Below the pieces are notes generated by a model that saw nothing but the letters and a program-made list of their open reading frames with translations, did no database searches and was not told the DNA's origin. Position numbers and translations under genes: made by a program. Source: Candidatus Collierbacteria bacterium GW2011_GWC2_44_18 (lineage in GTDB: Bacteria > Patescibacteriota > Microgenomatia > UBA1400 > MFAQ01). From it: a stretch of 64,000 nt of DNA. The DNA lies in the NCBI GenBank assembly GCA_001000865.1, contig LCIE01000002.1:32992-96991 (forward strand). Reading direction: 5' to 3'. Shown piece after piece: positions 7,988 to 61,117 of the stretch. Within the stretch, counting starts at the first letter, position 1; every line of letters begins with the position of its first letter.

Positions 7988-8100
7988 TCGTCATTGCCTT
8001 TTGTAGGGGCGGACCCCCGCGTCCGCCCGCAAACCACCAATTGTCATTGCGAATCTCGGTACTCCGAGCCCTGCCTGCCGGCAGGCAGGTGTGGCAATCT
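7988..8100. repeat. composite repeat cluster: Family-A element, Family-B REP (8002-8030), second Family-A element with a CTGCCTGCCGGCAGGCAGG palindrome
   Basis: cgtcattgcc..gtaggggcggacccccgcgtccgcccgc..ttgtcattgcgaatctcggtactccgagccctgcctgccggcaggcaggtgtggcaatctc. Confidence 0.8.
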
Positions 8101-36748: not shown

Positions 36749-36800
36749 GTCATGCCGGACCTGATAGGGCCGCTGGTCCCCGAAGGGGGAAATCCATCCC
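36749..36800. repeat. Family-A long variant (GTCATGCCGGACCTGATAGGGCCGCTGGTCCCCGAAGGGGGAAATCCATCC)
   Basis: Near-identical copy inside the CapA-fusion CDS at 52438-52493. Confidence 0.8.
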
Positions 36801-36834
36801 ATCACTCCGAATAAATAAATGTAAAATATACCCA

Positions 36835-42359: not shown

Positions 42360-42839
42360 ATGGCTCAAAAACTATCAAAAAAATCAAAAATCGCCGTCAA
42401 GCCGGTTAAAACCATTCCAGTTAAAAAAGGTACCTTATCGATGCCCAAAGAATTTTTCTCTGCCATTGGTAGACGCAAAACCGCCATTGCTCGCGTTAGG
42501 ATTTGGCCTGGCAAACAGGAGCTAACGGTCAACGGCAAACCAATCTCCACCTATTTCAAAGGGGAAACCTTCAAAAAAATCTATCAAGCACCATTCATGG
42601 TTACCGAAACTCTGGGTCAATATACCGGTAGTATCAAAATCGCCGGATCCGGTTTAATGTCTCAAGCAGACGCTATCGTTCATGGTATTGCTCGCGCCTT
42701 GGTAAAAGTTAACTCTGATCAATTCAAACAGATTTTGAGAGACAAGGGTTTCATTACTCGAGACTCCCGTATGAAAGAGACCAGAAAAGCCGGACAGGGT
42801 GGTCGAGCCCGCGCCAAGAAACAAAGCCCAAAGCGTTAA
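42360..42839 (+). CDS. rpsI: 30S ribosomal protein S9
   Basis: C-terminal ...RKAGQGGRARAKKQSPKR motif. Confidence 0.92.
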   Translation: MAQKLSKKSKIAVKPVKTIPVKKGTLSMPKEFFSAIGRRKTAIARVRIWPGKQELTVNGKPISTYFKGETFKKIYQAPFMVTETLGQYTGSIKIAGSGLMSQADAIVHGIARALVKVNSDQFKQILRDKGFITRDSRMKETRKAGQGGRARAKKQSPKR

Positions 42840-42840
42840 T

Positions 42841-42868
42841 CGTCATTCCGAGCGAAGTCGAGGAATCT
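42841..42868. repeat. Family-A variant (GTCATTCCGAGCGAAGTCGAGGAATCTC)
   Basis: Immediately after the rpsI stop. Confidence 0.7.
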
Positions 42869-42883
42869 CAAACCACAAAATCA

Positions 42884-42925: not shown

Positions 42926-43920
42926 ACAATAGACTTGTCGCAAAATAAGCAACATCACCTCCCCCTCCCCAGATATCAGGTTAACAAGTGTCTTTGGTAA
43001 TTGGTCGGGTAAAGTTGTAGAGGGCATATCTGTCGGCAAGAATATGGAAGTGTTTGAGTGCTCCAATGACATGTTCTACTCGTACTCTGATTGAGGATAT
43101 GGTTTGATTGGTTAGCTTGTCCATCTCAGGAAGTTCTTTCTTGTATGGTTTCTTGATTGGAAGAATCACCTTAGAGTGTGAACTTGATTCTTGTAGTCCT
43201 ACGTATCCTAAGTCAGCCAGACAAGTGGCTCCGGGCGGAGCCCGGAGAACTGTGCCATCATCCACGCACAACTGTTTGTCATGTCGTTTTCCCTCCACTG
43301 TTTGGGAGACAGCCAAAATTCTTTTGGTGTGTGGGTGGATGATGATTTGATTCTTGATCGTATGTTTCTTCTTTTTACCAGAGTAATAGAACTCTTGATT
43401 TTTCTTTGGTCTTTGTACTGCTCTCTCGGTGGCATCAATGATGAACTCAGAGAGATCAGGACAGATCTCGAGCATTCCCGCCATGGTACGGATCTTTCTT
43501 TTAGGTAGCCTAAGTTCATATCCTAGTGTTAACCAAAGCACTTCCTCCATAAATACCTTCCATCGATGGATAGTTTCCTTGTCTACCTCGAAGATTGTTT
43601 GAGCCAGGCGGAAAGTGGGATATGTTTTGTAGTAAAACAAGATGAAGAGTAATCTCTCTGAAGAAGTTCGGAGTACCGACCTTCTTCCTGCTCCCATTCC
43701 TCTGTCTCTGTCCCATCTCCACAGTTTGTGGTGTCGACTCTGTCGAAATCGAATATCAAAAAGTGGTAACAGTTTGTTAAACTTTTCCTGACTCATTCCA
43801 ATTACCGCTGGAAAAAGATCAGGATGTTTGAGAAGATAGAGTAGATTCATGGGCAGGAACTTACTAATATGGGGTCCTGCCCATAATCTTATCAGAGCTA
43901 ATTATGCGACAAGTCTAATA
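42926..43920 (-). mobile_element. IS5-family insertion sequence (~1.0 kb) with terminal inverted repeats
   Basis: Left end aatagacttgtcgcaaaat (42928-42942). Right end reverse complement attagacttgtcgcataat (43905-43917). A single DDE transposase ORF fills the interior. Confidence 0.7.
42981..43850 (-). CDS. IS5/IS4-superfamily DDE transposase (289 aa)
   Basis: N-terminal HTH region. KKKHTIKNQIII and DLGYVG motifs are typical of DDE_Tnp_1-type transposases. Confidence 0.75.
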   Translation of the reverse strand: MNLLYLLKHPDLFPAVIGMSQEKFNKLLPLFDIRFRQSRHHKLWRWDRDRGMGAGRRSVLRTSSERLLFILFYYKTYPTFRLAQTIFEVDKETIHRWKVFMEEVLWLTLGYELRLPKRKIRTMAGMLEICPDLSEFIIDATERAVQRPKKNQEFYYSGKKKKHTIKNQIIIHPHTKRILAVSQTVEGKRHDKQLCVDDGTVLRAPPGATCLADLGYVGLQESSSHSKVILPIKKPYKKELPEMDKLTNQTISSIRVRVEHVIGALKHFHILADRYALYNFTRPITKDTC

Positions 43921-43940
43921 GAAGGGGGACATCCAAGTAT

Positions 43941-43981
43941 TTCTGGATTCCGAGTCGCACTACGCTTGCCCGGAATGACAA
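43941..43981 (-). repeat. Family-A element in inverted orientation
   Basis: Reverse complement of ttctggattccgagtcgcactacgcttgcccggaatgacaa gives ttgtcattccgggcaagcg...ggaatccagaa. Confidence 0.65.
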
Positions 43982-44001
43982 ACTGCGAAAGTCGTAATTC
44001 T

Positions 44002-44052
44002 GTTGAATTGGATACATATCAAATAATGCCCAATCATGTTCATGTTGGCTAT
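44002..44052 (+). pseudogene. remnant of an IS200/IS605-type or REP-associated (RAYT) HUH tyrosine transposase
   Basis: Encodes VELDTYQIMPNHVHVG, which matches the TnpA/RAYT HUH block (e.g. ILELEVMPDHVHLL). No intact N- or C-terminal parts. Flanked by REP-like palindromes at 44054-44075 and 44146-44174. Confidence 0.35.
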
Positions 44053-44053
44053 C

Positions 44054-44075
44054 GGGTCGACGCGGGGGTCGACCC
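44054..44075. repeat. Family-B-related palindrome GGGTCGACGCGGGGGTCGACCC
   Basis: Perfect inverted repeat with GC-rich loop. Confidence 0.6.
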
Positions 44076-44145
44076 CTACAGTTCGAGAATATGCAAAAAG
44101 ATTGAAAACAATCCATTAAATTGGGAAAAAGACAAATTGTATTCC

Positions 44146-44174
44146 CCGTAGGGGCAGGCCCCCGCGCCTGCCCG
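44146..44174. repeat. Family-B REP-like palindrome
   Basis: ccgtaggggcaggcccccgcgcctgcccg. Confidence 0.75.
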
Positions 44175-44252
44175 TATAAATCCAACCACAACACAAAAAC
44201 CAACCACGCCTCAAAATCATTCTTCCCGTAGGGGTTTCATTTATGAAACCCG

Positions 44253-45164
44253 TTATTTCACCCCACCATACAATCTTTCTTCCATCTCCCGATTCAATTC
44301 CACACTCGTCACCCCATCTCTTTCTGCATCAAAATACCCACCCATAATTCTGGACGCCAGCACCGGCGCAAACTCATTATCGTTCTTTTCGGTCCATTTA
44401 TAAGCCTCCTTGAATATTTTCAAAAATTGCTCTGCCAGATCCGGTCTTTTCAGTTTGGTATAAACACGGTGATAGAAATAGGCCACGTCATAAAACTTCA
44501 GTCCACCCATTTGTGCCGCCTCACCATCAACCAAGTAATACTCACTTTTCTCGGTCTTCATAATATTCCAAGGTGTAAAGTCTCCATGACTTGCTTCTAT
44601 TTCCATATCATCACTTCTTTCTTCGATAAATTGAAGAAGATCACGAGTGCTCCGTTTAATACTTTTTGACCACTCTCTGGCATTATCAACCAAACTTTTT
44701 GCCCCCACCATCTTCAAAGACTCTCGATCTTTTGGCAGCAGACTTGCTCTCGAGATTTCCATAATATTCTTGGCTATTTCCGCCACTTTGTGCAAATCCT
44801 TGACAGCAATATCGTTGTTTTTATTATCTATTTCGGCTAGCGGTTTACCAAAAACAAACTCTCCAATAAACCAATATTTATCTTGAAAATACCCTTCGTC
44901 GAAGATTTTGGGTGACTTAAATGTCGTCAAGTATTTTTTCCAAACAGAGGTAACATTTTTATTCCACACAGCCTCATTTATCGTTCTCTCTCCGATCTCT
45001 TCCGTACTGGCTAACTTCAGGAAAAGCTTCTCATTCTCAAACTTGACTTGACCGGTCACGTGCCGCCACAGTTGTTCCAGTTTTTGCACTTTATACCCTT
45101 TATTCTCAAAGTATCTCCCCACCTCCTCCAAGTTCAGTTTTCCATGCATTTCCTTACCGGACAT
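44253..45164 (-). CDS. APH/choline-kinase-family phosphotransferase (303 aa)
   Basis: HGDFTPWNIM (HGDxxxxN catalytic loop) and downstream D motif (YLVDGE). Confidence 0.65.
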   Translation of the reverse strand: MSGKEMHGKLNLEEVGRYFENKGYKVQKLEQLWRHVTGQVKFENEKLFLKLASTEEIGERTINEAVWNKNVTSVWKKYLTTFKSPKIFDEGYFQDKYWFIGEFVFGKPLAEIDNKNNDIAVKDLHKVAEIAKNIMEISRASLLPKDRESLKMVGAKSLVDNAREWSKSIKRSTRDLLQFIEERSDDMEIEASHGDFTPWNIMKTEKSEYYLVDGEAAQMGGLKFYDVAYFYHRVYTKLKRPDLAEQFLKIFKEAYKWTEKNDNEFAPVLASRIMGGYFDAERDGVTSVELNREMEERLYGGVK

Positions 45165-49200: not shown

Positions 49201-51530
49201 GAATCTATCGTTCCTTGGGCGACGATATTATTGCTTCATACCAATCTCATCAATATCCTCTGGATAGTTCCGGGGCTGAAGGTGGTGGTTGTTTCTTGGC
49301 GGGTACACAGATATTGATGGAAGACGGAAAAACAAAAGAAATTCAGGATATAAAGGTGGGAGATATAGTCAAGTCATTTCTAAGTCCTCTGTCGAGGAAA
49401 ATAGCAACTGCCAAAGTTTCCAAAGTTTTCACGCATCAGGTAGTAGGTTATTTGGTAATTAACAATCACCTAAGAGTCACCGGAGAACACAATTTATATA
49501 TCAATGGTCGGTTCATGACCGCCTCTGAGGTAAAAGTTGGGGATTTCTATCTTGATACTCATGGGGAGTACCAAAAGATATTCTCCATCGAAAGTCGATC
49601 TGGAATAAATACGGTCTACAATTTCACGGTAGAAAAATTAAACACATACTTCGCCGAAGGATTTTATGTCCACAACGAGAAGGGTCGCGAATTATTCGTG
49701 GACAATGCTTTTTTCAGCAGTGTCCGTACCGGTAGTGATGGCCGTGCCAGCGTTGATGTTAAGCTTCCGGATAATCTTACCTCTTGGAAAATTACCTCCC
49801 AAGGAGTTACTGCCGATCTGAAAGCAGGTGTCGACTCTTCTCTTCTGGTTGTTAAACAACCCTTCTTCGTAGATGTAGTCATGAACACTGAGTATCTGGT
49901 TGGCGAACGACCGGAAGTTTCGGTTCGTGCCTATGGTGAAGGACTATCCACTGGGGACCAAGTAATCCTAAAAATTCAATCTGATACTTTAGGAATAGAT
50001 AAAAGTCTTAACATAAAAGCCTTTGAAAGTTCTAAAGTGGATCTTGGTGTCCTCAAAGAAGGCTCCCACAAAATTACCATTTCGGGTATTTCCGGTAGTC
50101 TTACGGATAAGTTAATCAGAAAAATGAATGTAGTCAAGTCTCGCCTCAAAGCAGTCAAATCGGTCAGTGTTTCTTTGGCAGAAGGTACCAAGCCGGAAGG
50201 TTCGCCAGATTCGTCAACGACCTTAATCTTTTCCGACCAAAGCCTCGGTCGTTATTTCCCACCCCTTTCAAACCTGGCTTACACTTGGGGGGATCGCTCA
50301 GATCAGCGTCTAGCCCGCCATCTTTCGCAGTCTATCATCAAGAAGCTTTTCGACGATTCTATCAGTCCGGAAACACTCGACCTCACCGCCTTTCAAACTC
50401 CGGATGGTGGTTATGCACTCTTTCCCTACTCTGGAGCAGACCTGGAGCTCTCTGCCTTCGTAGCGTCCTTGGCAAAAGAAAAGGTTGATCTCATTGGTTT
50501 GGGAAACTATTTTTACAAAGAATTTTCCCAATCAAAAGACCTCGACACTGCCTCCATGTCGCTTTTTGGACTGGCAAGTTTAGACGAACCGGTACTACTA
50601 TTAATAAACAATCTTTCGGGCGAAAAAGATCTCAGCCCCTTGTCCAGAATCTACTTGGCTTTGGCTCAAGCCAAGATCGGGGATACCGAAATGGCCCGCA
50701 TTTTCTACAAGACTCTCATGTCGGAGTTTTCCGAAAAACAAGATTCATTAATCTTGATGAAAGTCGGATCAGACAAAGATAGTTATCTCCAGGCCACTTC
50801 ACTTACTTCTGCTCTTTCCTCCTTGTTGGGTGAGCCGGAAGCTGACAGTCTGCTTTCTTACACCCTGGCTAATAGCGCGAAAGACATCTTACTAGTTGCT
50901 CCTCAGATGATGGCCATTTCCTATCAGATCGAAAATATTAAACCCCAACCGGTCTCTTTTTCATACACTCTAAATGGCAAAAAGATACCCAAAAAACTTG
51001 AAAAGGGTCAAGTTTTCAAGCTTGAGTTATCGTCCACTGATCTATCCGGAATAAGTTTTTCCGATCTTGTTGGCAATGTCGGTTTGTCTTCAACTTTCGC
51101 GGTTCCTCTGGATCCAAAAACTGCCCCCATAAGTTCGTCGGTTCAGTTAGGTCGGAGTTACTCTGTTCGTGGTGCTATCACCAACACTTTCTCCACCAGC
51201 GATCTTGTCAAAATTTCACTTCCAGTTGCCTATGCGGATATCTCTCAAGACGGTTGTTACCAAGTCTCGGATCTACTTCCTTCGGGGTTGAGACCGATCA
51301 CTTCGATTTATAGTTTCGGGCTGGATTCCACAAAGACTTGGTATCCATACGAGATAAATGGCCAAAAGGTTAGTTTCTGTGTAGGAAATGGAAGTAAAGA
51401 AAAAACCATCAACTACTATGCGAGGGTCGTCTCCGGTGGCGACTTCAAAGCCGAAAGTGCCTTGATTCAATCCTTAATTTCACCTTCAGTCTTCAACCTT
51501 TCTCCCTCCGGCTCGGTCATTATCAAATGA
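46272..51530 (+). CDS. alpha-2-macroglobulin-family surface protein (1752 aa), thioester-less, with a Hint/BIL domain in place of the bait region
   Basis: N-terminal signal-anchor helix and repeated MG-type beta-sandwich domains (e.g. LVQITDLSAYLTVSGTKTLVWVNDIGTGQPVSGASV). The post-bait A2M block FVDNAFFSSVRTGSDGRASVDVKLPDNLTSWKI...LVVKQPFFVDVVMNTEYLVGE aligns with human A2M [32 protein letters not shown]...[21 protein letters not shown] (recalled from memory). No CxEQ thioester at the expected position (LAYTWGDRSDQ instead). Confidence 0.7.
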   Translation: MTSPYPVIKLKSSMGKIKTFLGSLRPWQLVGILLVSLGLLASVILASQYLQLSAKLKLGSDAGLLLTADRQDSLGTFQDSTFTLKSDQDLTVAGLKNSVTFFPEIDFDIREISPRQFSISPKAPLKNNSLYRVKVVSDQKTFSWAFQTKNDFRVVQTLPRDQATYVPINSGIEITFSHDNWDDISLKDGNFEITPFAEGRFERHKRTISFIPEGLVPNTLYTVKIKKGLKLKGTNEVLKDDFVYRFETQSSSGDKTQINFSRSFYEFSPPETPAFDIYTSSTGVGEASVKVYQYPNVQDFTSDFTTKLAIPAWATNSLRLNRRPVSGLNKVLDFPASIQKQSYTNYFLLPQTLPKGFYLIEATIDNITTQALVQITDLSAYLTVSGTKTLVWVNDIGTGQPVSGASVSFAGKGQETGQDGVAYFDTPTEKITENSNLIGVSHGSNALYLPVQNVRYYYDADYQNSRRVADKYWNYFYTDRPVYLPTDILKFWGLLRDRDNLNQNQKFTLEVTRSDYTSWDFHPMVLFTKDFETSDLGTFIGDIPLASYNPGWYGISLKINGTIVSSSSFSIETYTKPAYKLTLTPSKKAAIVGEIISFSGEATFFEGSPVVGMDLKVTGAQNSNFTTDSLGRFNFNYLVSKNSYNYLPEYRNFVVLPTLPEEGMIQVNSSIAVFDSSLVLGYSKTESKNSTGKVEIDLRQVDTGKFTQSSDIQDIFAPASNRLVTGTLVENQWNRREVGTYYDFINKVTSPKYAYDRVQTKIADISLTTDSKGKAVYEFPVGENKSYDILLYATDDQGRTTSQNVYLTGSVNNAELNNYVYLKTDKEGQNSSRYAIGESVNLTLMRGELPLESSGNDKFLYLFSQRGLNSYQLASDGKISFKYPTAFVPNVFVRAVRFTGKTYQVSENLYLYFDTTSKKLSLGITQDKPSYLPGDTAKLSVLVKDQTGSGVSSEVNLSLTDEAYNALNSTFVDPLSGIYRSLGDDIIASYQSHQYPLDSSGAEGGGCFLAGTQILMEDGKTKEIQDIKVGDIVKSFLSPLSRKIATAKVSKVFTHQVVGYLVINNHLRVTGEHNLYINGRFMTASEVKVGDFYLDTHGEYQKIFSIESRSGINTVYNFTVEKLNTYFAEGFYVHNEKGRELFVDNAFFSSVRTGSDGRASVDVKLPDNLTSWKITSQGVTADLKAGVDSSLLVVKQPFFVDVVMNTEYLVGERPEVSVRAYGEGLSTGDQVILKIQSDTLGIDKSLNIKAFESSKVDLGVLKEGSHKITISGISGSLTDKLIRKMNVVKSRLKAVKSVSVSLAEGTKPEGSPDSSTTLIFSDQSLGRYFPPLSNLAYTWGDRSDQRLARHLSQSIIKKLFDDSISPETLDLTAFQTPDGGYALFPYSGADLELSAFVASLAKEKVDLIGLGNYFYKEFSQSKDLDTASMSLFGLASLDEPVLLLINNLSGEKDLSPLSRIYLALAQAKIGDTEMARIFYKTLMSEFSEKQDSLILMKVGSDKDSYLQATSLTSALSSLLGEPEADSLLSYTLANSAKDILLVAPQMMAISYQIENIKPQPVSFSYTLNGKKIPKKLEKGQVFKLELSSTDLSGISFSDLVGNVGLSSTFAVPLDPKTAPISSSVQLGRSYSVRGAITNTFSTSDLVKISLPVAYADISQDGCYQVSDLLPSGLRPITSIYSFGLDSTKTWYPYEINGQKVSFCVGNGSKEKTINYYARVVSGGDFKAESALIQSLISPSVFNLSPSGSVIIK
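49290..49676 (+). other. Hint (bacterial intein-like, BIL-type) domain embedded in the A2M-family protein
   Basis: Begins GGG-CFLAGTQILMEDGK (block A). Has the TxxH block B (RVTGEHNL). Ends NTVYNFTVEKLNTYFAEGFYVHN (blocks F/G). The residue after the terminal Asn is Glu, not Cys/Ser/Thr. About 129 aa with no homing endonuclease. Confidence 0.75.
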
Positions 51531-53341
51531 AACTCTGGCAGTTATTTATTGGTTTTCTACCGATTATCGTCATTGCGACCTGCCTGCCGGCAGGCAGGGT
51601 TTTACTCGAACCGAAGCAATCTCCGAGCTTGAACCCTACACCTATTCGTGGGGTTAACCAACCCTTTGACACCTCCTTCGCTTATGATAATCGCACTTTT
51701 CTACCTGCCGTCGCTCAAAATACTGGCGTTGGTAACGGAACCTCTCCTAGGGTGGTTGTTCTCCCTCATCACCTGACCGCTTCTACCCTGATTGCTCAAG
51801 GCTTGTCGCTTTTAAAAACACCTCCACCCAAAACTATTGTTCTTTTATCTCCCAATCATGCCAACACCGGACAGTGCGCTATAGTTTCCTCCAAAAATAA
51901 TTGGGATACCCCATTTGGTCAGGTCCTAGTCGATCAATATCTATTGAATGATTTTCTGGACACCAAAACCATCTGTTTGGATGACTCGGCTGTGGCTATA
52001 GAACATGGTCTTGCCGGATTGGTTCCCTTCATCAAATATTATCTCCCGAATACAAAAATTGTTCCTTTTGCCCTTAAAAATGACCTCGATCCAATATTGT
52101 TAAATAATTTTACTCAAAAATTAGTTTCACTTTCTACAAAAACCGTTATCTTAGGCTCAATAGACTTTTCCCATGGTCTGTCCAAAAGTGAATCGACCAA
52201 AAAAGACGCTGTCACCGAGAAGTTACTATTGACCTTTAACTATCCGGAACTTCTCAAACTTTCATCCGAGTATCTCGACTCTCCGGTTTCTTTGGTCGCC
52301 ATTCTCAAAATTCTAGACTCGGAAAAAACCAAACCGAACATTCTAGCCCACAGTGACTCATCGGTTTTCAATAACCAACCAATGAACGTCACTTCATATT
52401 TTTTGATCTCCGGCGGCAGTAGTTCATCATCGACCATTCGTCATCCCGGACTTGATAGGGCCGTTGGTCCCCGAAGGGGGAGATCCATCCCCTCTGGAAA
52501 TTCCTTCACTCTCCTCTTCGGCGGTGACGTCATGCTTGGTCGCTCCGTCAATACCAGAATGATAAAGTACCAAGATTTCTTATGGCCATTCCAAAAAATA
52601 TCAGCTCTTCTTTCTTCTGCGGACTTATCTATTATCAATCTCGAGTCGCCTTTCCGTTCTGGTTGCCGACCGACCGATGGTGGTATGGTTTTTTGCGCCG
52701 ATCCTCGATCAGTCGAAGGTTTGGTTACGGCCGGCATCGATGTTGTTAATATCGCCAATAATCACATTTTCAATCAAGGCCAGGAGGGCATAGATGAAAC
52801 CATCGCCATATTAAATAATAACAACATTGCTTTCGTAGGGGCGGACCCCCGCGTCCGCCCGACAAACGACCCCCGCGTCGATCCGCAAAAATCGACATTC
52901 ACTCTCAAAAATACCAAAATCACTTTCTTGGGCTTTACCGACATTGCCTCCGTTTCCCAAGAAATTGCGACCGCCACTCCAGACAATATTAGAGCTCAAA
53001 TATCTGCCGCAAAAAAAGATTCCGATTTGGTTATCGCTACTTTCCACTGGGGCAATGAATATAGTCATCGGTCACTTCATCAGGTGGAACTCGCTCATCT
53101 AGCCGTTGATTCTGGTGCCGATGTCGTCATCGGCCACCACCCGCACTGGGTCCAGGAAGTAGAAACCTATTTGGGTAAACCCATTTACTATTCTCTGGGA
53201 AATTTAGTTTTCGATCAAATGTGGTCAGAAGAAACCAGGACAGGTCTAGTAGTCAAGTTAAACTTCTCTGGCAGTACCCTAATCAGTCAAGAACAAATTC
53301 CTATAAAAATTTTCGACTATGGTCAGCCAGCTACTCTATAA
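51527..53341 (+). CDS. fusion protein: MEMO1/AmmeMemoRadiSam-B-like domain plus CapA/PgsA-type metallophosphatase domain (604 aa), carrying three in-frame repeat insertions
   Basis: MEMO-like motifs LPHHLTAS, SPNHANTG, EHGLAGLVPFIKYY, SIDFSHG. CapA-like motifs LLFGGDVMLGRSV, NLESPF, NIANNHIFNQGQEG, TFHWGNEY, VVIGHHPHWVQE. ATGA overlap with the A2M gene stop. Repeat copies at 51568-51598, 52438-52493 and 52834-52861 are read in-frame. Confidence 0.65.
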   Translation: MKLWQLFIGFLPIIVIATCLPAGRVLLEPKQSPSLNPTPIRGVNQPFDTSFAYDNRTFLPAVAQNTGVGNGTSPRVVVLPHHLTASTLIAQGLSLLKTPPPKTIVLLSPNHANTGQCAIVSSKNNWDTPFGQVLVDQYLLNDFLDTKTICLDDSAVAIEHGLAGLVPFIKYYLPNTKIVPFALKNDLDPILLNNFTQKLVSLSTKTVILGSIDFSHGLSKSESTKKDAVTEKLLLTFNYPELLKLSSEYLDSPVSLVAILKILDSEKTKPNILAHSDSSVFNNQPMNVTSYFLISGGSSSSSTIRHPGLDRAVGPRRGRSIPSGNSFTLLFGGDVMLGRSVNTRMIKYQDFLWPFQKISALLSSADLSIINLESPFRSGCRPTDGGMVFCADPRSVEGLVTAGIDVVNIANNHIFNQGQEGIDETIAILNNNNIAFVGADPRVRPTNDPRVDPQKSTFTLKNTKITFLGFTDIASVSQEIATATPDNIRAQISAAKKDSDLVIATFHWGNEYSHRSLHQVELAHLAVDSGADVVIGHHPHWVQEVETYLGKPIYYSLGNLVFDQMWSEETRTGLVVKLNFSGSTLISQEQIPIKIFDYGQPATL

Positions 53342-56410: not shown

Positions 56411-56436
56411 AGGCCTGCCTGCCGGCAGGCAGGTTT
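56411..56436. repeat. CTGCCTGCCGGCAGGCAGG palindrome (Family-A core module)
   Basis: aggcctgcctgccggcaggcaggttt. The same palindrome occurs at 8071-8090 and 51581-51598. Confidence 0.7.
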
Positions 56437-56459: not shown

Positions 56460-58043
56460 ATGTCTATACTCTCAATTTTCCGTTCAAACATTTTCAAGAA
56501 TCTTTCAGGCTCCGAAAAAAGCAAGTCAGTCTCTTCAGCTCCTGTAGGGGCGATTCATGAATCGCCCGCAAAGGCAGCACCGCCAACGGTCTCTGTCCCC
56601 GTCGTCTCCACTCCTACAGTCGATACGGCTGCTATTATCGCCGCCGCCCAAGCTACAGCTCAGTCTCAGGCCAGAGAAATAATTATCTCCGCCAAAGACG
56701 AGGCCTTCAAAATAAAAGACCAAGCCATCAAGGATGCTCGAATTCAGCTGGAGGAAATCGAGGTTAGAGCCAAAAACCTGGCTCAAAAGCAACAAAGTAC
56801 TGCCACCATTGAAGAACAATTAAAACGGGAGAAAACAAATCTGGATCTCCAGACAACTCAAATTGAAGAGCTGAAGGCAAAAATTGTTTCTCAAGCCGAT
56901 TCAATGGTTGAAAAGCTCGAAAAAATTGCCTCATTAACCACCGAACAAGCCAAGAAGGAGCTTATTGCACAAGTTGAGAAACGTTCTGCCGTTGAAGCAA
57001 CAAGAGCCATAAAAGAAGCCGAGGAAAAAGCCAAGATCGAGGCAGAGGATCTCGCCAGGGAAATACTTGTCGATGCCATGAAGGCCGGTGCCACAGACTA
57101 TGTCGCCGAGTATACGATCTCTACTGTTCCAATTCCTGATGAAGAAACCAAAGGTCGAATTATCGGTAAAGACGGTCGCAATATTCGGATTTTCGAAAAA
57201 GTATCAGGATGTGATGTCTCTATGGACGACGGTCCCGATGAAGTCAAGTTGAGTAGTTTTGATCCTGTCCGTCGAGAAATTGCCCGTCTCACTTTAATTC
57301 ATTTAATCAAAGACGGTCGTATTCACCCGGCTCGTATCGAAGAATACTTTGAGAGATCAAAGAGAGACGTCGAACAGATAATGTTCCTGGAAGGCCAGAA
57401 GCTTTGCCACGCTGTCGGTGTTTACAACATGAATCGAGAGATCATTACCATGCTTGGCCGTTTCAAATTCCGCACCTCCTATGGTCAAAACATGATCAGT
57501 CATACTTTAGAAGAGACAAGAATTGGAATCAAAATAGCCAATGAAATTGGTGCCAATGTAGATATCGTTAGAATGGGTTGTTTGCTTCACGATATCGGCA
57601 AGATAATTGAAGGAGAGGGCAATCATGTGGAGCTTGGTGTTCAATACCTTAAGAAGTTCAATATTCCTCAAACCATTCTTGATTGTGTCGCCCAGCATCA
57701 TGAGGATGAGGAATTTAGTTCTAATGAATCGGTCATTGTCTATATCGCCGACGCCATCTCCGGTTCCAGACCGGGAGCTCGCCATGAGAATACCGAAGAG
57801 TACGGTAAGCGGATTAAGCATTTGGAGGAAATCGCTCGAAAGCATCCGGAAGTTGACGACGCCTACGCCATCTCCGCCGGGAGAGAAATCAGGGTTATTG
57901 TAAATCCAAGTAAAGCAGGTGATGAACAGTTATCTGTTATTGCACAAGCCATTCGCGATGAAATCAGAGACACCATGACTTTCCCCGGAACTGTCAAGGT
58001 TAATTGTATTCGCGAAACGCGCGCCTCGGAAATCGCATCGTAA
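56460..58043 (+). CDS. rny: ribonuclease Y
   Basis: Coiled-coil region, KH domain (GRIIGKDGRNIR) and HD domain (HDIGK...HHED). Confidence 0.88.
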   Translation: MSILSIFRSNIFKNLSGSEKSKSVSSAPVGAIHESPAKAAPPTVSVPVVSTPTVDTAAIIAAAQATAQSQAREIIISAKDEAFKIKDQAIKDARIQLEEIEVRAKNLAQKQQSTATIEEQLKREKTNLDLQTTQIEELKAKIVSQADSMVEKLEKIASLTTEQAKKELIAQVEKRSAVEATRAIKEAEEKAKIEAEDLAREILVDAMKAGATDYVAEYTISTVPIPDEETKGRIIGKDGRNIRIFEKVSGCDVSMDDGPDEVKLSSFDPVRREIARLTLIHLIKDGRIHPARIEEYFERSKRDVEQIMFLEGQKLCHAVGVYNMNREIITMLGRFKFRTSYGQNMISHTLEETRIGIKIANEIGANVDIVRMGCLLHDIGKIIEGEGNHVELGVQYLKKFNIPQTILDCVAQHHEDEEFSSNESVIVYIADAISGSRPGARHENTEEYGKRIKHLEEIARKHPEVDDAYAISAGREIRVIVNPSKAGDEQLSVIAQAIRDEIRDTMTFPGTVKVNCIRETRASEIAS

Positions 58044-60019: not shown

Positions 60020-61117
60020 ATGAAAAATATTTTAGTCATCTGTGGACCAACTGCCTCCGGCAAAACCTCTCTCGCCCTTTCCGTTGCTAAAGAATTAACC
60101 GAACGTCATTCCGGGCTCGGCCCGGCCGCTGGTACCCGAAGGGGTAAATCCACCATTCCGTCATTGCGAGGGCAACCTGCCTGCCGTAGGTCGAAGATAT
60201 CGTGTATTTCACGATCAGGTCTCACTCCATCAGGATCAGTCAACATCCTCTCCGCCGACTCCAGACAGATATACCAGGGTCTGGACATCGTCACCGGCAA
60301 GGACATTCCTGCAGATCTCCCTCCAAACATTAGTTTTTTTGGTTTGGATTTGGTCGAGCCAAACCAAGCCTACAATCTCGCGGACTTCGTCAGTTATTCA
60401 CAGAAAATTATTCAAAGCTCCATTAAAGAGAATGTCCCCTTAATCATTGTTGGGGGAACCGGTTTGTATCTGAAAGCTATTACTTCAGATCTTCTCAACG
60501 TCCACGTTCCTCCGAATATTGATCTTCGTCGTGATCTAGAGAGGTTAGACCTTAAGACTTTGCAGTCTCGTCTCTTGGAATTAAATCCCAATAAACTCGC
60601 CTCCCTAAACAACTCAGATCTCCACAATCCCCGCCGTCTCATCCGCGCCATCGAAATATCATCGTCATTGCGCGATTCGACTTCCATAGATACCCCTTTA
60701 GAGGGTACGAACCAAAGCAATCCATCCTCTCTGGATCGCCACGCTTCGCTCACGATGACAGATATTTCTTTTCTCTGGATCGGACTACATCAAGACAAAG
60801 AGATTCAAAAGGCAAAAATTCGCCAAAGGGTTTTAGATCGTCTAGACTACGGCGCCATTGAAGAGGTTGAAAACTTGATGATAAAGTATCCCAACCACCG
60901 CCCCCCCATTTTTACCAGTCTTGGTGTCCAAGAAACCAGCAAGTTCTTGCACCAAGAAATCACTCGAGAAACACTTATCCATTTATGGACTGCCTCCGAA
61001 ATAGCTTATGCCCGGAGACAGATGGTCTGGTTCAAGAAACAACCCGGTATAGTTTGGTATGATAAAAGTACGATAGACAGCCACCTAATCGCTAAGCTGA
61101 CAGAAATATATAAATAA
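60020..61117 (+). CDS. miaA: tRNA dimethylallyltransferase carrying in-frame insertions of four Family-A repeat copies
   Basis: P-loop ICGPTASGKTSLAL, SADSRQIYQGLDIVTGK and RRLIRAIE motifs. Extra segments RHSGLGPAAGTRRGKSTIPSLRGQPACRRSKISCISRSGLTP (60104-60232) and SSLRDSTSIDTPLEGTNQSNPSSLDRHASLTM (60663-60760) are encoded by repeat copies. Confidence 0.85.
   Translation: MKNILVICGPTASGKTSLALSVAKELTERHSGLGPAAGTRRGKSTIPSLRGQPACRRSKISCISRSGLTPSGSVNILSADSRQIYQGLDIVTGKDIPADLPPNISFFGLDLVEPNQAYNLADFVSYSQKIIQSSIKENVPLIIVGGTGLYLKAITSDLLNVHVPPNIDLRRDLERLDLKTLQSRLLELNPNKLASLNNSDLHNPRRLIRAIEISSSLRDSTSIDTPLEGTNQSNPSSLDRHASLTMTDISFLWIGLHQDKEIQKAKIRQRVLDRLDYGAIEEVENLMIKYPNHRPPIFTSLGVQETSKFLHQEITRETLIHLWTASEIAYARRQMVWFKKQPGIVWYDKSTIDSHLIAKLTEIYK
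60104..60232. repeat. two tandem Family-A elements inside miaA, read in-frame
   Basis: gtcattccgggctcggcccggccgctggtacccgaaggggtaaatccacc followed by gtcattgcgagggcaacctgcctgccgtaggtcgaagatatcgtgtatttcacgatcaggtctcactcc. Confidence 0.85.
60663..60760. repeat. two Family-A elements in opposite orientations inside miaA, read in-frame
   Basis: gtcattgcgcgattcgacttcc...ggtacgaaccaaagcaatcc, then the reverse complement of gtcatcgtgagcgaagcgtggcgatccagagagg. Confidence 0.8.

What the first reader, a model, noticed from the sequence alone, without database searches (positions are those of the whole stretch)
43941..44174. GTAG-initiated REP-like palindromes and a decayed HUH (RAYT/IS200-like) transposase remnant next to an IS5 element
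A second repeat family (GTAGGGGCGGACCCCCGCGTCCGCCC and variants) begins with GTAG, as classical REPs do; the GTAG start is what REP-associated tyrosine transposases recognise. Right beside two copies, an ORF fragment encodes VELDTYQIMPNHVHVG, matching the HUH block of IS200/RAYT transposases. This looks like a dead RAYT beside its REPs, within a small graveyard of mobile DNA (IS5 element, inverted Family-A copy) downstream of rpsI.
Basis: partly seen in the sequence, partly recalled or inferred. Interest (0 to 1): 0.55.

Follow-up and report, generated by a model that had tools for sequence, protein, structure and literature searches.

The report
Dead REP transposase gene with REPs
Downstream of the ribosomal gene rpsI in this small groundwater bacterium lies the broken remnant of a known type of "REP-mobilising" transposase gene, still carrying its hairpin repeats; this is an ordinary decayed copy of a described family, not a new system.

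Summary
Window 43996-44151 (+) keeps two blocks of a Y1/HUH transposase: the HUH strand (NSVELDTYQIMPNHVH) and the C-terminal helix (RICKKIENNPLNWEKDKLY). GTAG-headed hairpins lie at 44054-44079 (-), 44148-44173 (+) and 44228-44253 (+).

A profile built from 121 intact relatives hits only this ORF in the window (E=1.1e-8). Related Woesebacteria carry an intact 167-170 aa gene in the same place, directly after rpsI. Those genes share the relic's layout: one REP inside the gene just after the HUH strand, and one REP whose GTAG supplies the TAG stop codon.

The family is TnpA_REP subclass 2.4, equal to RAYT group 4 (Quentin 2018; Bertels 2017). In-frame REPs inside the gene are already its published hallmark.

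The window copy is dead:
- it lacks the N-terminal ~75 residues;
- it lacks ~47 central codons, including the WQ motif;
- the catalytic Tyr is replaced by Lys.

The IS5-type element (42932-43920) is a recent, unrelated insertion. IS-free contigs with 100% identical flanks carry the same relic.

Novelty is low: a decayed new member of a known kind, in a candidate-phyla-radiation (CPR) genome. I could not test whether an intact copy exists elsewhere in this genome.

The parts
42360..42839 (+). rpsI (ribosomal protein S9). This is the upstream anchor gene; in relatives the intact RAYT gene starts 8-26 nt after it.
   Evidence: ORF; Ribosomal_S9 Pfam on the identical gene of L200; 48% identical to L073 rpsI.
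42841..42870 (+). CGTC-tagged hairpin repeat ('Family A'), CGTCATTCCGAGCGAAGTCGAGGAATC. A separate repeat family, not part of the RAYT system.
   Evidence: CGTCATTSCG occurs 16 times in the window, all on the + strand, against 0.21 expected. Compare the CGTC superfamily of Di Nocera 2013 (PMC3733652).
42932..43920 (-). IS5-family-type insertion sequence (989 bp): 21-nt terminal inverted repeats and a 289-aa DDE transposase ORF at 42981-43850. Recent and polymorphic in the population.
   Evidence: Inverted repeats, (I2). DDE_Tnp_4 1.5e-22 and HTH_Tnp_4. Absent from L200-L205, whose flanks are 100% identical; there it is replaced by 39 bp of a composite repeat, and no simple target duplication is visible.
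43945..43980 (-). Inverted Family-A-like hairpin (TGTCATTCCGGGC...CTCGGAATCC). With 43921-43944 it is part of a composite repeat that now occupies the place of the RAYT N-terminal half.
   Evidence: I12; D3, D11.
43996..44046 (+). Relic block 1: beta-strand plus HUH motif, NSVELDTYQIMPNHVHV (H-V-H at 44035-44043).
   Evidence: Family HMM domain 1, profile positions 80-96 of 213, 18.3 bits. NCBIfam REP_Tyr_transpos E=0.0024. Alignment A2.
44054..44079 (-). Intragenic REP (reverse orientation), GTAGGGGTCGACCCCCGCGTCGACCC, directly after the HUH strand. The central deletion starts at its GTAG foot.
   Evidence: Same position and orientation as the REP inside the intact genes of L073, L206, L209 and L211. 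Hairpin -13.9 kcal/mol.
44080..44148 (+). Relic block 2: C-terminal helix with the Y motif, SSRICKKIENNPLNWEKDKLYSP. The catalytic Tyr position is Lys (44098-44100).
   Evidence: Family HMM domain 2, profile positions 175-194, 13.8 bits, with 'reYianNp' aligned to 'CKKIENNP'. Alignment A2. DNA alignment with L073.
44148..44173 (+). 3' REP GTAGGGGCAGGCCCCCGCGCCTGCCC. The TAG of its GTAG head (44149-44151) is the stop codon of the relic ORF.
   Evidence: Same arrangement in L206, L209 and L211, and 5 nt after the stop in L073. Hairpin -16.6 kcal/mol.
44228..44253 (+). Second-type GTAG hairpin GTAGGGGTTTCATTTATGAAACCCGT with an AT-rich stem, at the 3' end of the convergent APH-like gene (44253-45164, -).
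   Evidence: A near-identical hairpin with compensatory changes lies inside a RAYT gene in L178 (GTAGGGGTTTGATTTATCAAACCC).

Best explanation
Window 43996-44151 is a pseudogene relic of a REP-associated tyrosine transposase (RAYT / TnpA_REP) of subclass 2.4 (= RAYT group 4). Its cognate GTAG-headed REP hairpins are still in place. In intact relatives the gene sits just after rpsI, encodes about 170 aa, and carries one REP in frame in the loop after the HUH strand. It ends in a REP whose GTAG supplies the TAG stop. By analogy with E. coli TnpA_REP, such enzymes bind the REP hairpin on single-stranded DNA, read the GTAG foot, and cut and rejoin with the HUH-bound metal and the Tyr of the YIxNNP motif. 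That activity is thought to spread REPs; this step is inferred, not shown here. In this genome the gene is dead. The N-terminal ~75 residues have been replaced by other hairpin repeats. About 47 central codons, from the foot of the internal REP to just before the Y-motif helix and including the WQ motif, are deleted. The catalytic Tyr is Lys. The REPs remain as stable hairpins. The dispersed copies of the same family sit mostly 8-18 nt after stop codons, in the sense of the gene, where they most likely act as RNA 3'-end hairpins (inferred). The IS5-type element is a later, unrelated insertion.
For: Homology:
- phmmer of the 52-aa fragment against 1.84e9 proteins returned six Y1_Tnp/RAYT-like proteins matching both blocks in order, at E about 1e-4.
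- Those proteins hit NCBIfam REP_Tyr_transpos at 1e-8 to 1e-19, and hit IS200 far more weakly.
- A profile of 121 family members hits only this ORF among 1,837 window segments, E=1.1e-8.

Family signature:
- NHVH and xIxNNP match the subclass 2.4 motifs of Quentin 2018 Table 1.
- The REP inside the gene between HUH and Y is that subclass's stated unique feature. It was seen here in 62 of 75 metagenome loci, with a matching extragenic copy in 23 of them.

Synteny and architecture:
- rplM-rpsI-RAYT is found in L073 and L206.
- REP(-) after HUH and REP(+) at the stop occur in L073, L206, L209 and L211, as in the window.

REP-RAYT link:
- Of the 119 loci holding the 26-mer, three have a RAYT-like gene, or its start at the locus edge (L096), within about 200 bp (L070, L073, L096).

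Decay:
- Alignment A2 and the HMM alignment show the missing N-terminus, the missing WQ block and Tyr->Lys.

IS unrelated:
-.
Against: The fragment alone fails the curated cut-offs: Pfam Y1_Tnp 13.2 bits against 23, and NCBIfam 17.8 bits against 80. The phmmer E-values near 1e-4 are shared by three unrelated proteins, two of them zinc-finger proteins. The case therefore rests on the family profile, the co-linearity of the two blocks, the synteny and the REP architecture together. Synteny holds only on the upstream side: relatives have recA downstream, while the window has an APH-like gene. The ORF stays open for 100 codons and is identical in 20 contigs, so a residual role is not excluded. The mechanism of REP mobilisation and the RNA role of the hairpins are inferred from other systems.
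Confidence: 0.9

Rival explanations
1. The 86-100 aa ORF (annotated hypothetical protein UW16_C0011G0010) is a functional mini-protein. It could be, for example, a truncated RAYT derivative that still binds REP DNA or regulates an intact RAYT elsewhere.
For: The ORF is open through both blocks although two indels were needed to keep the frame. Short natural versions with the same HUH-loop-C-terminus layout exist (P0005 103 aa, P0008 117 aa). The sequence is identical in 20 contigs.
Against: It lacks beta1/alphaA, alphaC, the WQ block and the catalytic Tyr. What is left, one strand and one helix, cannot form the Y1 fold. Its N-terminal third is translated repeat DNA, and it differs between the IS-free and IS-bearing variants. 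No diverged orthologue of the short form was found.
Confidence: 0.05
2. It is a remnant of an IS200/IS605 insertion sequence (TnpA_IS200) rather than of a RAYT.
For: It belongs to the same Y1/HUH superfamily. The best Pfam model is 'Transposase IS200 like'. Two intact relatives also hit NCBIfam transpos_IS200 weakly.
Against: The motifs are NHVH and xIxNNP, not DH[VI]H and Y[IV]ENQ. Intact relatives score 68 bits against REP_Tyr_transpos and 26 bits against IS200. They are flanked by GTAG REPs, sit at a conserved chromosomal site, and no tnpB is present.
Confidence: 0.03
3. The similarity is chance. The hairpins are simply terminator or stabiliser stem-loops, and the HUH-like peptide is a fortuitous translation of intergenic DNA.
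For: Curated cut-offs are not reached. The PDB search found nothing. Unrelated proteins reach similar phmmer E-values.
Against: Two separate blocks match in the right order (E=1.1e-8). The REP(-) and the stop-codon REP(+) lie exactly where intact genes have them. The locus is the one that holds the intact gene in relatives.
Confidence: 0.02

Closest known systems
TnpA_REP subclass 2.4 (Quentin, Siguier, Chandler & Fichant 2018, PMC6006769) = RAYT group 4 (Bertels, Gallie & Rainey 2017, PMC5581495)
   Same: NH[IFV]H HuH motif and YIxNNP-type Y motif. No C-terminal tail domain. A variable insert between beta3 and alphaC made of in-frame REP sequence. Flanking 'canonical long' REPs with a GTAG foot and a GGG/CCC stem base. 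Usually one copy at a fixed chromosomal site.
   Different: The window copy is a relic: no N-terminal half, no alphaC/WQ block, and Lys in place of the catalytic Tyr. The host is a candidate-phyla-radiation (Microgenomates) genome; CPR hosts are not among the phyla named in the parts of those surveys that I read. In the CPR relatives the 3' REP supplies the stop codon, a detail I did not see in the sections I read.
E. coli TnpA_REP / RayT (YafM; subclass 2.2, RAYT group 2; structure 4ER8, Messing 2012, PMC3479197)
   Same: The same Y1/HUH fold family. It recognises a REP hairpin with a 5' GTAG and cleaves ssDNA. NCBIfam REP_Tyr_transpos is the best model for the intact relatives.
   Different: Different motifs (DHLH, YIHYNP), a C-terminal extension, REPs with bulged longer stems, and no REP inside the gene.
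IS200/IS605 TnpA (subclass 1.1)
   Same: HUH plus Tyr single-strand transposase core; hairpin recognition.
   Different: DH[VI]H / Y[IV]ENQ motifs, multi-copy insertion sequences with subterminal hairpins, often with tnpB. None of these is seen here.
GTAG-tagged REP superfamily (Di Nocera, De Gregorio & Rocco 2013, PMC3733652)
   Same: A 26-nt palindrome with an unpaired 5' GTAG. Mostly downstream of genes, occasionally in frame inside genes, and associated with RAYT genes ('REPtrons').
   Different: None of substance. The window also holds the other superfamily, CGTC-tagged, in higher copy number.

Membership tests
TnpA_REP subclass 2.4 / RAYT group 4 | HuH motif NH[IFV]H | tested here: met
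   N-H-V-H at 44032-44043. Motif definition from Quentin 2018 Table 1.
TnpA_REP subclass 2.4 / RAYT group 4 | Conserved W motif 'WQ' (WQRNYYEH block) | tested here: not met
   Absent from the relic; it lies in the ~47-codon deletion. Present in the syntenic intact genes L073 and L206.
TnpA_REP subclass 2.4 / RAYT group 4 | Y motif YIxNNP with the catalytic Tyr | tested here: not met
   The relic reads K-I-E-N-N-P. The profile's Tyr aligns to Lys at 44098-44100. The motif frame is recognisable, but the active residue is lost.
TnpA_REP subclass 2.4 / RAYT group 4 | REP sequence inserted in frame inside the gene between HuH and Y (beta3:alphaC) | tested here: met
   REP(-) at 44054-44079, three codons after the HuH motif (HVH-VGY-REP). 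Same position in L073, L206, L209 and L211, and in 62 of 75 metagenome loci.
TnpA_REP subclass 2.4 / RAYT group 4 | Flanking canonical long REPs: GT[AG]G foot, stem base of three G-C pairs | tested here: met
   44148-44173 GTAG|GGGCAGGC...GCCTGCCC. Dispersed copies at 785, 8003, 32465 and 52835.
TnpA_REP subclass 2.4 / RAYT group 4 | Complete PF01797 core / score above curated thresholds | tested here: not met
   Pfam Y1_Tnp 13.2 bits against 23. NCBIfam REP_Tyr_transpos 17.8 bits against 80, E=0.0024. Homology is nevertheless significant with a family-specific profile (E=1.1e-8). It is therefore filed as a pseudogene of the family, not as a functional member.
IS200/IS605 TnpA (subclass 1.1) | DH[VI]H and Y[IV]ENQ motifs; multi-copy IS with subterminal hairpins | tested here: not met
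   NHVH and xIxNNP instead. There is a single locus in the window. Intact relatives score far better on REP_Tyr_transpos than on transpos_IS200.
REP (GTAG-tagged repetitive extragenic palindrome) | 20-40 nt palindrome with 5' GTAG, repeated in the genome, mostly just downstream of genes | tested here: met
   Eight GTAG hairpins in 64 kb. Copies at 785, 8003 and 32465 lie 8, 18 and 10 nt after stop codons on the gene strand. Whole-genome copy number was not testable.
REP-RAYT system in this genome (active) | An intact cognate RAYT gene in the same genome | not testable with these tools
   None in the 64-kb window. None named from this genome among the top 120 homologues. The rest of the genome could not be fetched.
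IS5-family insertion sequence | DDE transposase, terminal inverted repeats, target-site duplication | tested here: inconclusive
   DDE_Tnp_4 and HTH_Tnp_4 and 21-nt inverted repeats are met. No clean duplication is seen: the comparison with the empty site shows 39 bp replaced.

The most novel reading that the evidence does not exclude
The lethal central deletion begins exactly at the GTAG foot of the gene's own internal REP. It leaves two inverted REPs 68 nt apart, which is REPIN-like geometry. RAYT genes of this subclass may therefore carry the substrate for their own destruction: the enzyme, or hairpin-driven slippage, would cut at the internal REP. That could make this a recurrent route both to RAYT loss and to new REP doublets born from the gene. 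Short natural forms with the same junction (P0005, P0008) hint that it recurs.
Probability: 0.15. Interest if true: 0.5.

Novelty: new member of a known kind. Interest (0 to 1): 0.25.

Why it matters
On its own it matters little. It is a correctly spotted pseudogene of a described transposase subclass, together with its hairpin repeats.

It does extend the REP/RAYT partnership to the tiny genomes of the candidate phyla radiation. There the gene occupies a fixed slot behind ribosomal-protein operons. The relic also gives a clean natural example of RAYT decay with the REPs surviving.

It is useful for annotation too. The 86-aa 'hypothetical protein' should be marked as a RAYT pseudogene. Peptides such as VGADPRVRP, VGAGPRACP and GRTQGSAPT in predicted proteins are translated REP hairpins.

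Tried and rejected
- The word-indexed protein search with the 60-aa fragment found only the fragment's own annotated ORF.
- phmmer against PDB chains found nothing relevant.
- Pfam alone was non-significant.
- I tested whether dispersed copies of the 26-mer in other genomes lie inside RAYT genes. None of 134 copies in 119 loci had a HUH motif upstream in frame, so the dispersed copies are ordinary extragenic REPs or REP doublets.
- I first took the in-gene REP (116 of 121 proteins with VGA.../...APT/...SPL peptides; 62 of 75 loci at DNA level) for a possibly new feature. Quentin 2018 already describes it for subclass 2.4, so I dropped the novelty claim.
- I considered that the IS5-type element had truncated the gene. 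This is rejected, because IS-free contigs carry the same relic.
- The search for an intact copy from the same genome, by organism names among the top 120 homologues, gave nothing and is inconclusive.
- The MAFFT DNA alignment of the relic with L073 misplaced the HUH block. I used protein and HMM alignments for that block instead.

Full report
**What is in the sequence**

The window is a low-GC (about 45%) stretch dominated by ribosomal-protein and RNA-polymerase genes. The only database protein matching the flagged ORF is named for Microgenomates group bacterium GW2011_GWC1_44_10, a candidate-phyla-radiation (CPR) genome.

Between rpsI (42360-42839) and a convergent APH-like gene (44253-45164, -) the sequence reads, in order:
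- a CGTC-tagged hairpin (42841-42870);
- a stem-loop followed by a T-run that looks like a terminator (from reading the sequence; no terminator scan was run);
- an IS5-type element (42932-43920), with 21-nt inverted repeats and a DDE_Tnp_4 ORF on the minus strand;
- the rest of a composite hairpin repeat, including an inverted Family-A-like arm (43945-43980);
- the flagged ORF fragment.

So are two GTAG-headed 26-nt palindromes, at 44054-44079 (-) and 44148-44173 (+). The pattern GTAGGGGN5CCCCGCGN5CC occurs six times in the window against 0.01 expected. All copies fold as an 8-bp stem with a 6-nt loop, -14 to -18 kcal/mol, and the stems differ by paired, compensatory substitutions. Two more GTAG hairpins with other stems lie at 44228 and 56544.

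**Is the HUH match real?**

The fragment is too short for the curated thresholds. Pfam Y1_Tnp gives 13.2 bits (E=0.1), NCBIfam REP_Tyr_transpos gives 17.8 bits (E=0.0024), and PDB sequences give nothing.

An exhaustive phmmer search of 1.84 billion representative proteins returned nine non-self hits at E about 1e-4. Six of them are 100-290 aa proteins that match both the HUH block and the C-terminal block in the same order. The other three, two of them zinc-finger proteins, are unrelated. The six are Y1_Tnp proteins whose best NCBIfam model is REP_Tyr_transpos (1e-8 to 1e-19). IS200 scores much lower.

I built a profile from 121 family members and searched all 1,837 stop-to-stop segments of the window with filters off. 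It hits only this ORF, E=1.1e-8. The match is in two pieces, at profile positions 80-96 (ieldefvimPnHihg / VELDTYQIMPNHVHV) and 175-194 (nrireYianNpakWekDk / SRICKKIENNPLNWEKDK) out of 213. The profile's catalytic Tyr aligns with Lys at 44098-44100.

**Related loci**

These spread over Chloroflexota, Planctomycetota, Acidobacteriota, Gammaproteobacteria, Omnitrophota, Deinococcales, CPR and others. None of the 134 copies lies behind a HUH motif, and many form inverted doublets.

tblastn with the RAYT-like proteins found a RAYT-like gene, or its start at the locus edge (L096), within about 200 bp of the REP in three of these loci. L070 (Thermoanaerobaculia) is a classic gene flanked by REP doublets on both sides.

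L073 (Candidatus Woesebacteria) has rpsI, then 8 nt later a 170-aa gene, then REPs, then recA. A second lineage, 88% identical at the protein level, shows rplM-rpsI-RAYT-recA-recX in three samples (L206-L208). Another relative sits behind rpsL-rpsG (L211). The window's rpsI is 48% identical to that of L073.

All four intact CPR-type genes share one architecture. One REP in reverse orientation lies in frame right after the HUH strand (...HVHVIIIIGRTQGSAPT...). One forward REP sits at the end of the gene. In L206, L209 and L211 its GTAG provides the TAG stop, and in L073 it lies 5 nt after the stop.

The window relic has exactly this layout: REP(-) at 44054-44079 after HVH, and REP(+) at 44148 whose TAG (44149-44151) ends the ORF. 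What is missing is the N-terminal ~75 residues and about 47 codons between the foot of the internal REP and the start of the Y-motif helix, including the WQRNYYEH block.

**The IS element**

The annotated protein P0001 has a different N-terminus from the window ORF. Contigs that encode it (L200-L205, out of 20 contigs) have rpsI and the relic only about 100 bp apart. BLAST of the window against L200 gives 100% identity up to 42931 and again from 43921. The 989-bp IS replaces 39 bp of a composite repeat, and no clean target duplication is visible. The relic itself is identical in both forms. The IS is therefore a recent, polymorphic insertion and not the cause of the gene's decay.

**What the family is**

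A profile search of 5.8 billion proteins scored 8,000 candidates and found 7,998 at E<=1e-5. JGI names many of them 'REP element-mobilizing transposase RayT'.

In 116 of 121 top members, the segment between the HUH strand and the WQ motif, mostly the loop just after the HUH strand, holds peptides such as VGAGPRACP...GQPQGVAPT. These are translations of GTAGGGGC... and ...GCCCCTAC.

At DNA level, 62 of 75 metagenome loci have a GTAG hairpin in that loop. In 23 of them the same hairpin (at most 5 mismatches in 26) also occurs outside the gene in the same short locus, although stems differ widely between loci.

This is already published. Quentin et al. [quoted passage not shown] They call the in-frame REP insertions between HuH and Y a unique feature of the subclass. 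They equate the subclass with Bertels' RAYT group 4, and Bertels et al. 2017 report group 4 as slowly evolving and congruent with housekeeping-gene trees. Di Nocera et al. 2013 describe GTAG- and CGTC-tagged REPs, their position downstream of genes, and occasional in-frame copies inside genes.

**How it most likely works**

Shown here: homology, architecture, synteny, loss of essential parts, and hairpin potential with compensatory changes.

Inferred from E. coli TnpA_REP and IS608 biochemistry (named families, not tested here): the intact enzyme binds the REP hairpin on single-stranded DNA, reads the GTAG foot, and cuts and rejoins through the HUH-bound metal and the Tyr. That activity would spread REPs.

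The window copy cannot do this. Its REPs persist as stable stem-loops. The dispersed copies at 785, 8003 and 32465 lie 8-18 nt after stop codons on the sense strand, consistent with a role as RNA 3'-end hairpins (inferred).

The deletion begins exactly at the foot of the internal REP. That is compatible with REP-directed cleavage or hairpin slippage, but this is speculation.

**Verdict**

- the relic is RAYT subclass 2.4, not IS200;
- one REP is intragenic and one supplies the stop codon;
- the IS is a bystander.

This is a decayed new member of a known kind. I could not determine whether an intact RAYT survives elsewhere in this genome.

Noticed in passing
window 52835-52889: A perfect copy of the REP (GTAGGGGCGGACCCCCGCGTCCGCCC) plus a headless half-repeat lies in frame inside the 604-aa Memo/PGA_cap (CapA-like) ORF 51527-53341. 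It encodes VGADPRVRPTNDPRVDP within the PGA_cap domain. I did not check whether homologues lack this segment.
   Followed up: partly
window 56544-56569: Another GTAG hairpin (GTAGGGGCGATTCATGAATCGCCC) lies in frame at codons 29-37 of the RNase Y ORF 56460-58043 (VGAIHESP), upstream of the matched RNase_Y_N region. It may be a true in-frame insertion, or the real start codon may lie downstream.
   Followed up: no
window, 16 sites (e.g. 85, 1489, 6737, 18972, 42841, 60663): The CGTC-tagged hairpin family (CGTCATTSCG...) has 16 copies against 0.21 expected, and every one is on the + strand, the strand of nearly all genes here. According to Di Nocera 2013 this superfamily has no known dedicated transposase.
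   Followed up: partly
loci L001-L119 (genome-contig scan): The same 26-nt REP (4 degenerate positions allowed) occurs in at least 119 loci from species-representative genomes of many phyla: Chloroflexota, Planctomycetota, Acidobacteriota, Gammaproteobacteria, Omnitrophota, Deinococcales and CPR. It is often present as inverted doublets.
   Followed up: partly
L206 1465-1468, L209 513-516, L211 3504-3507; window 44148-44151: In CPR-type RAYT genes the TAG stop codon is the TAG of the 3' REP's GTAG head, so the gene end and the REP foot overlap by design. I did not see this detail in the sections of the papers I read.
   Followed up: partly
window 42932-43920 versus L200 3992-4030: The IS5-type element is polymorphic in the groundwater population. 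IS-free contigs have 100% identical flanks, and the IS replaces 39 bp of a composite repeat (GTAATGCCGGACCTGATAGGGTCGCTGGTCCCCG...) without a clean target duplication.
   Followed up: yes
window 36749-36803, 52440-52494, 60105-60159; 8067-8090, 51576-51599, 56411-56434: Further short repeat families are present: a 55-nt composite (GTCATGCCGGACCTGATAGGGCCGCTGGTCCCCGAAGGGGG...) and a perfect palindrome CCTGCCTGCCGGCAGGCAGG. The intergenic DNA of this small genome is densely packed with hairpin repeats.
   Followed up: no
P0066, P0003, P0043: Some family members have the in-gene REP region expanded into long tandem arrays, for example VGADLRVCPI repeated eight times in P0066 and CNSPINETGE repeats in P0003. 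The loop therefore tolerates large, repetitive inserts.
   Followed up: no
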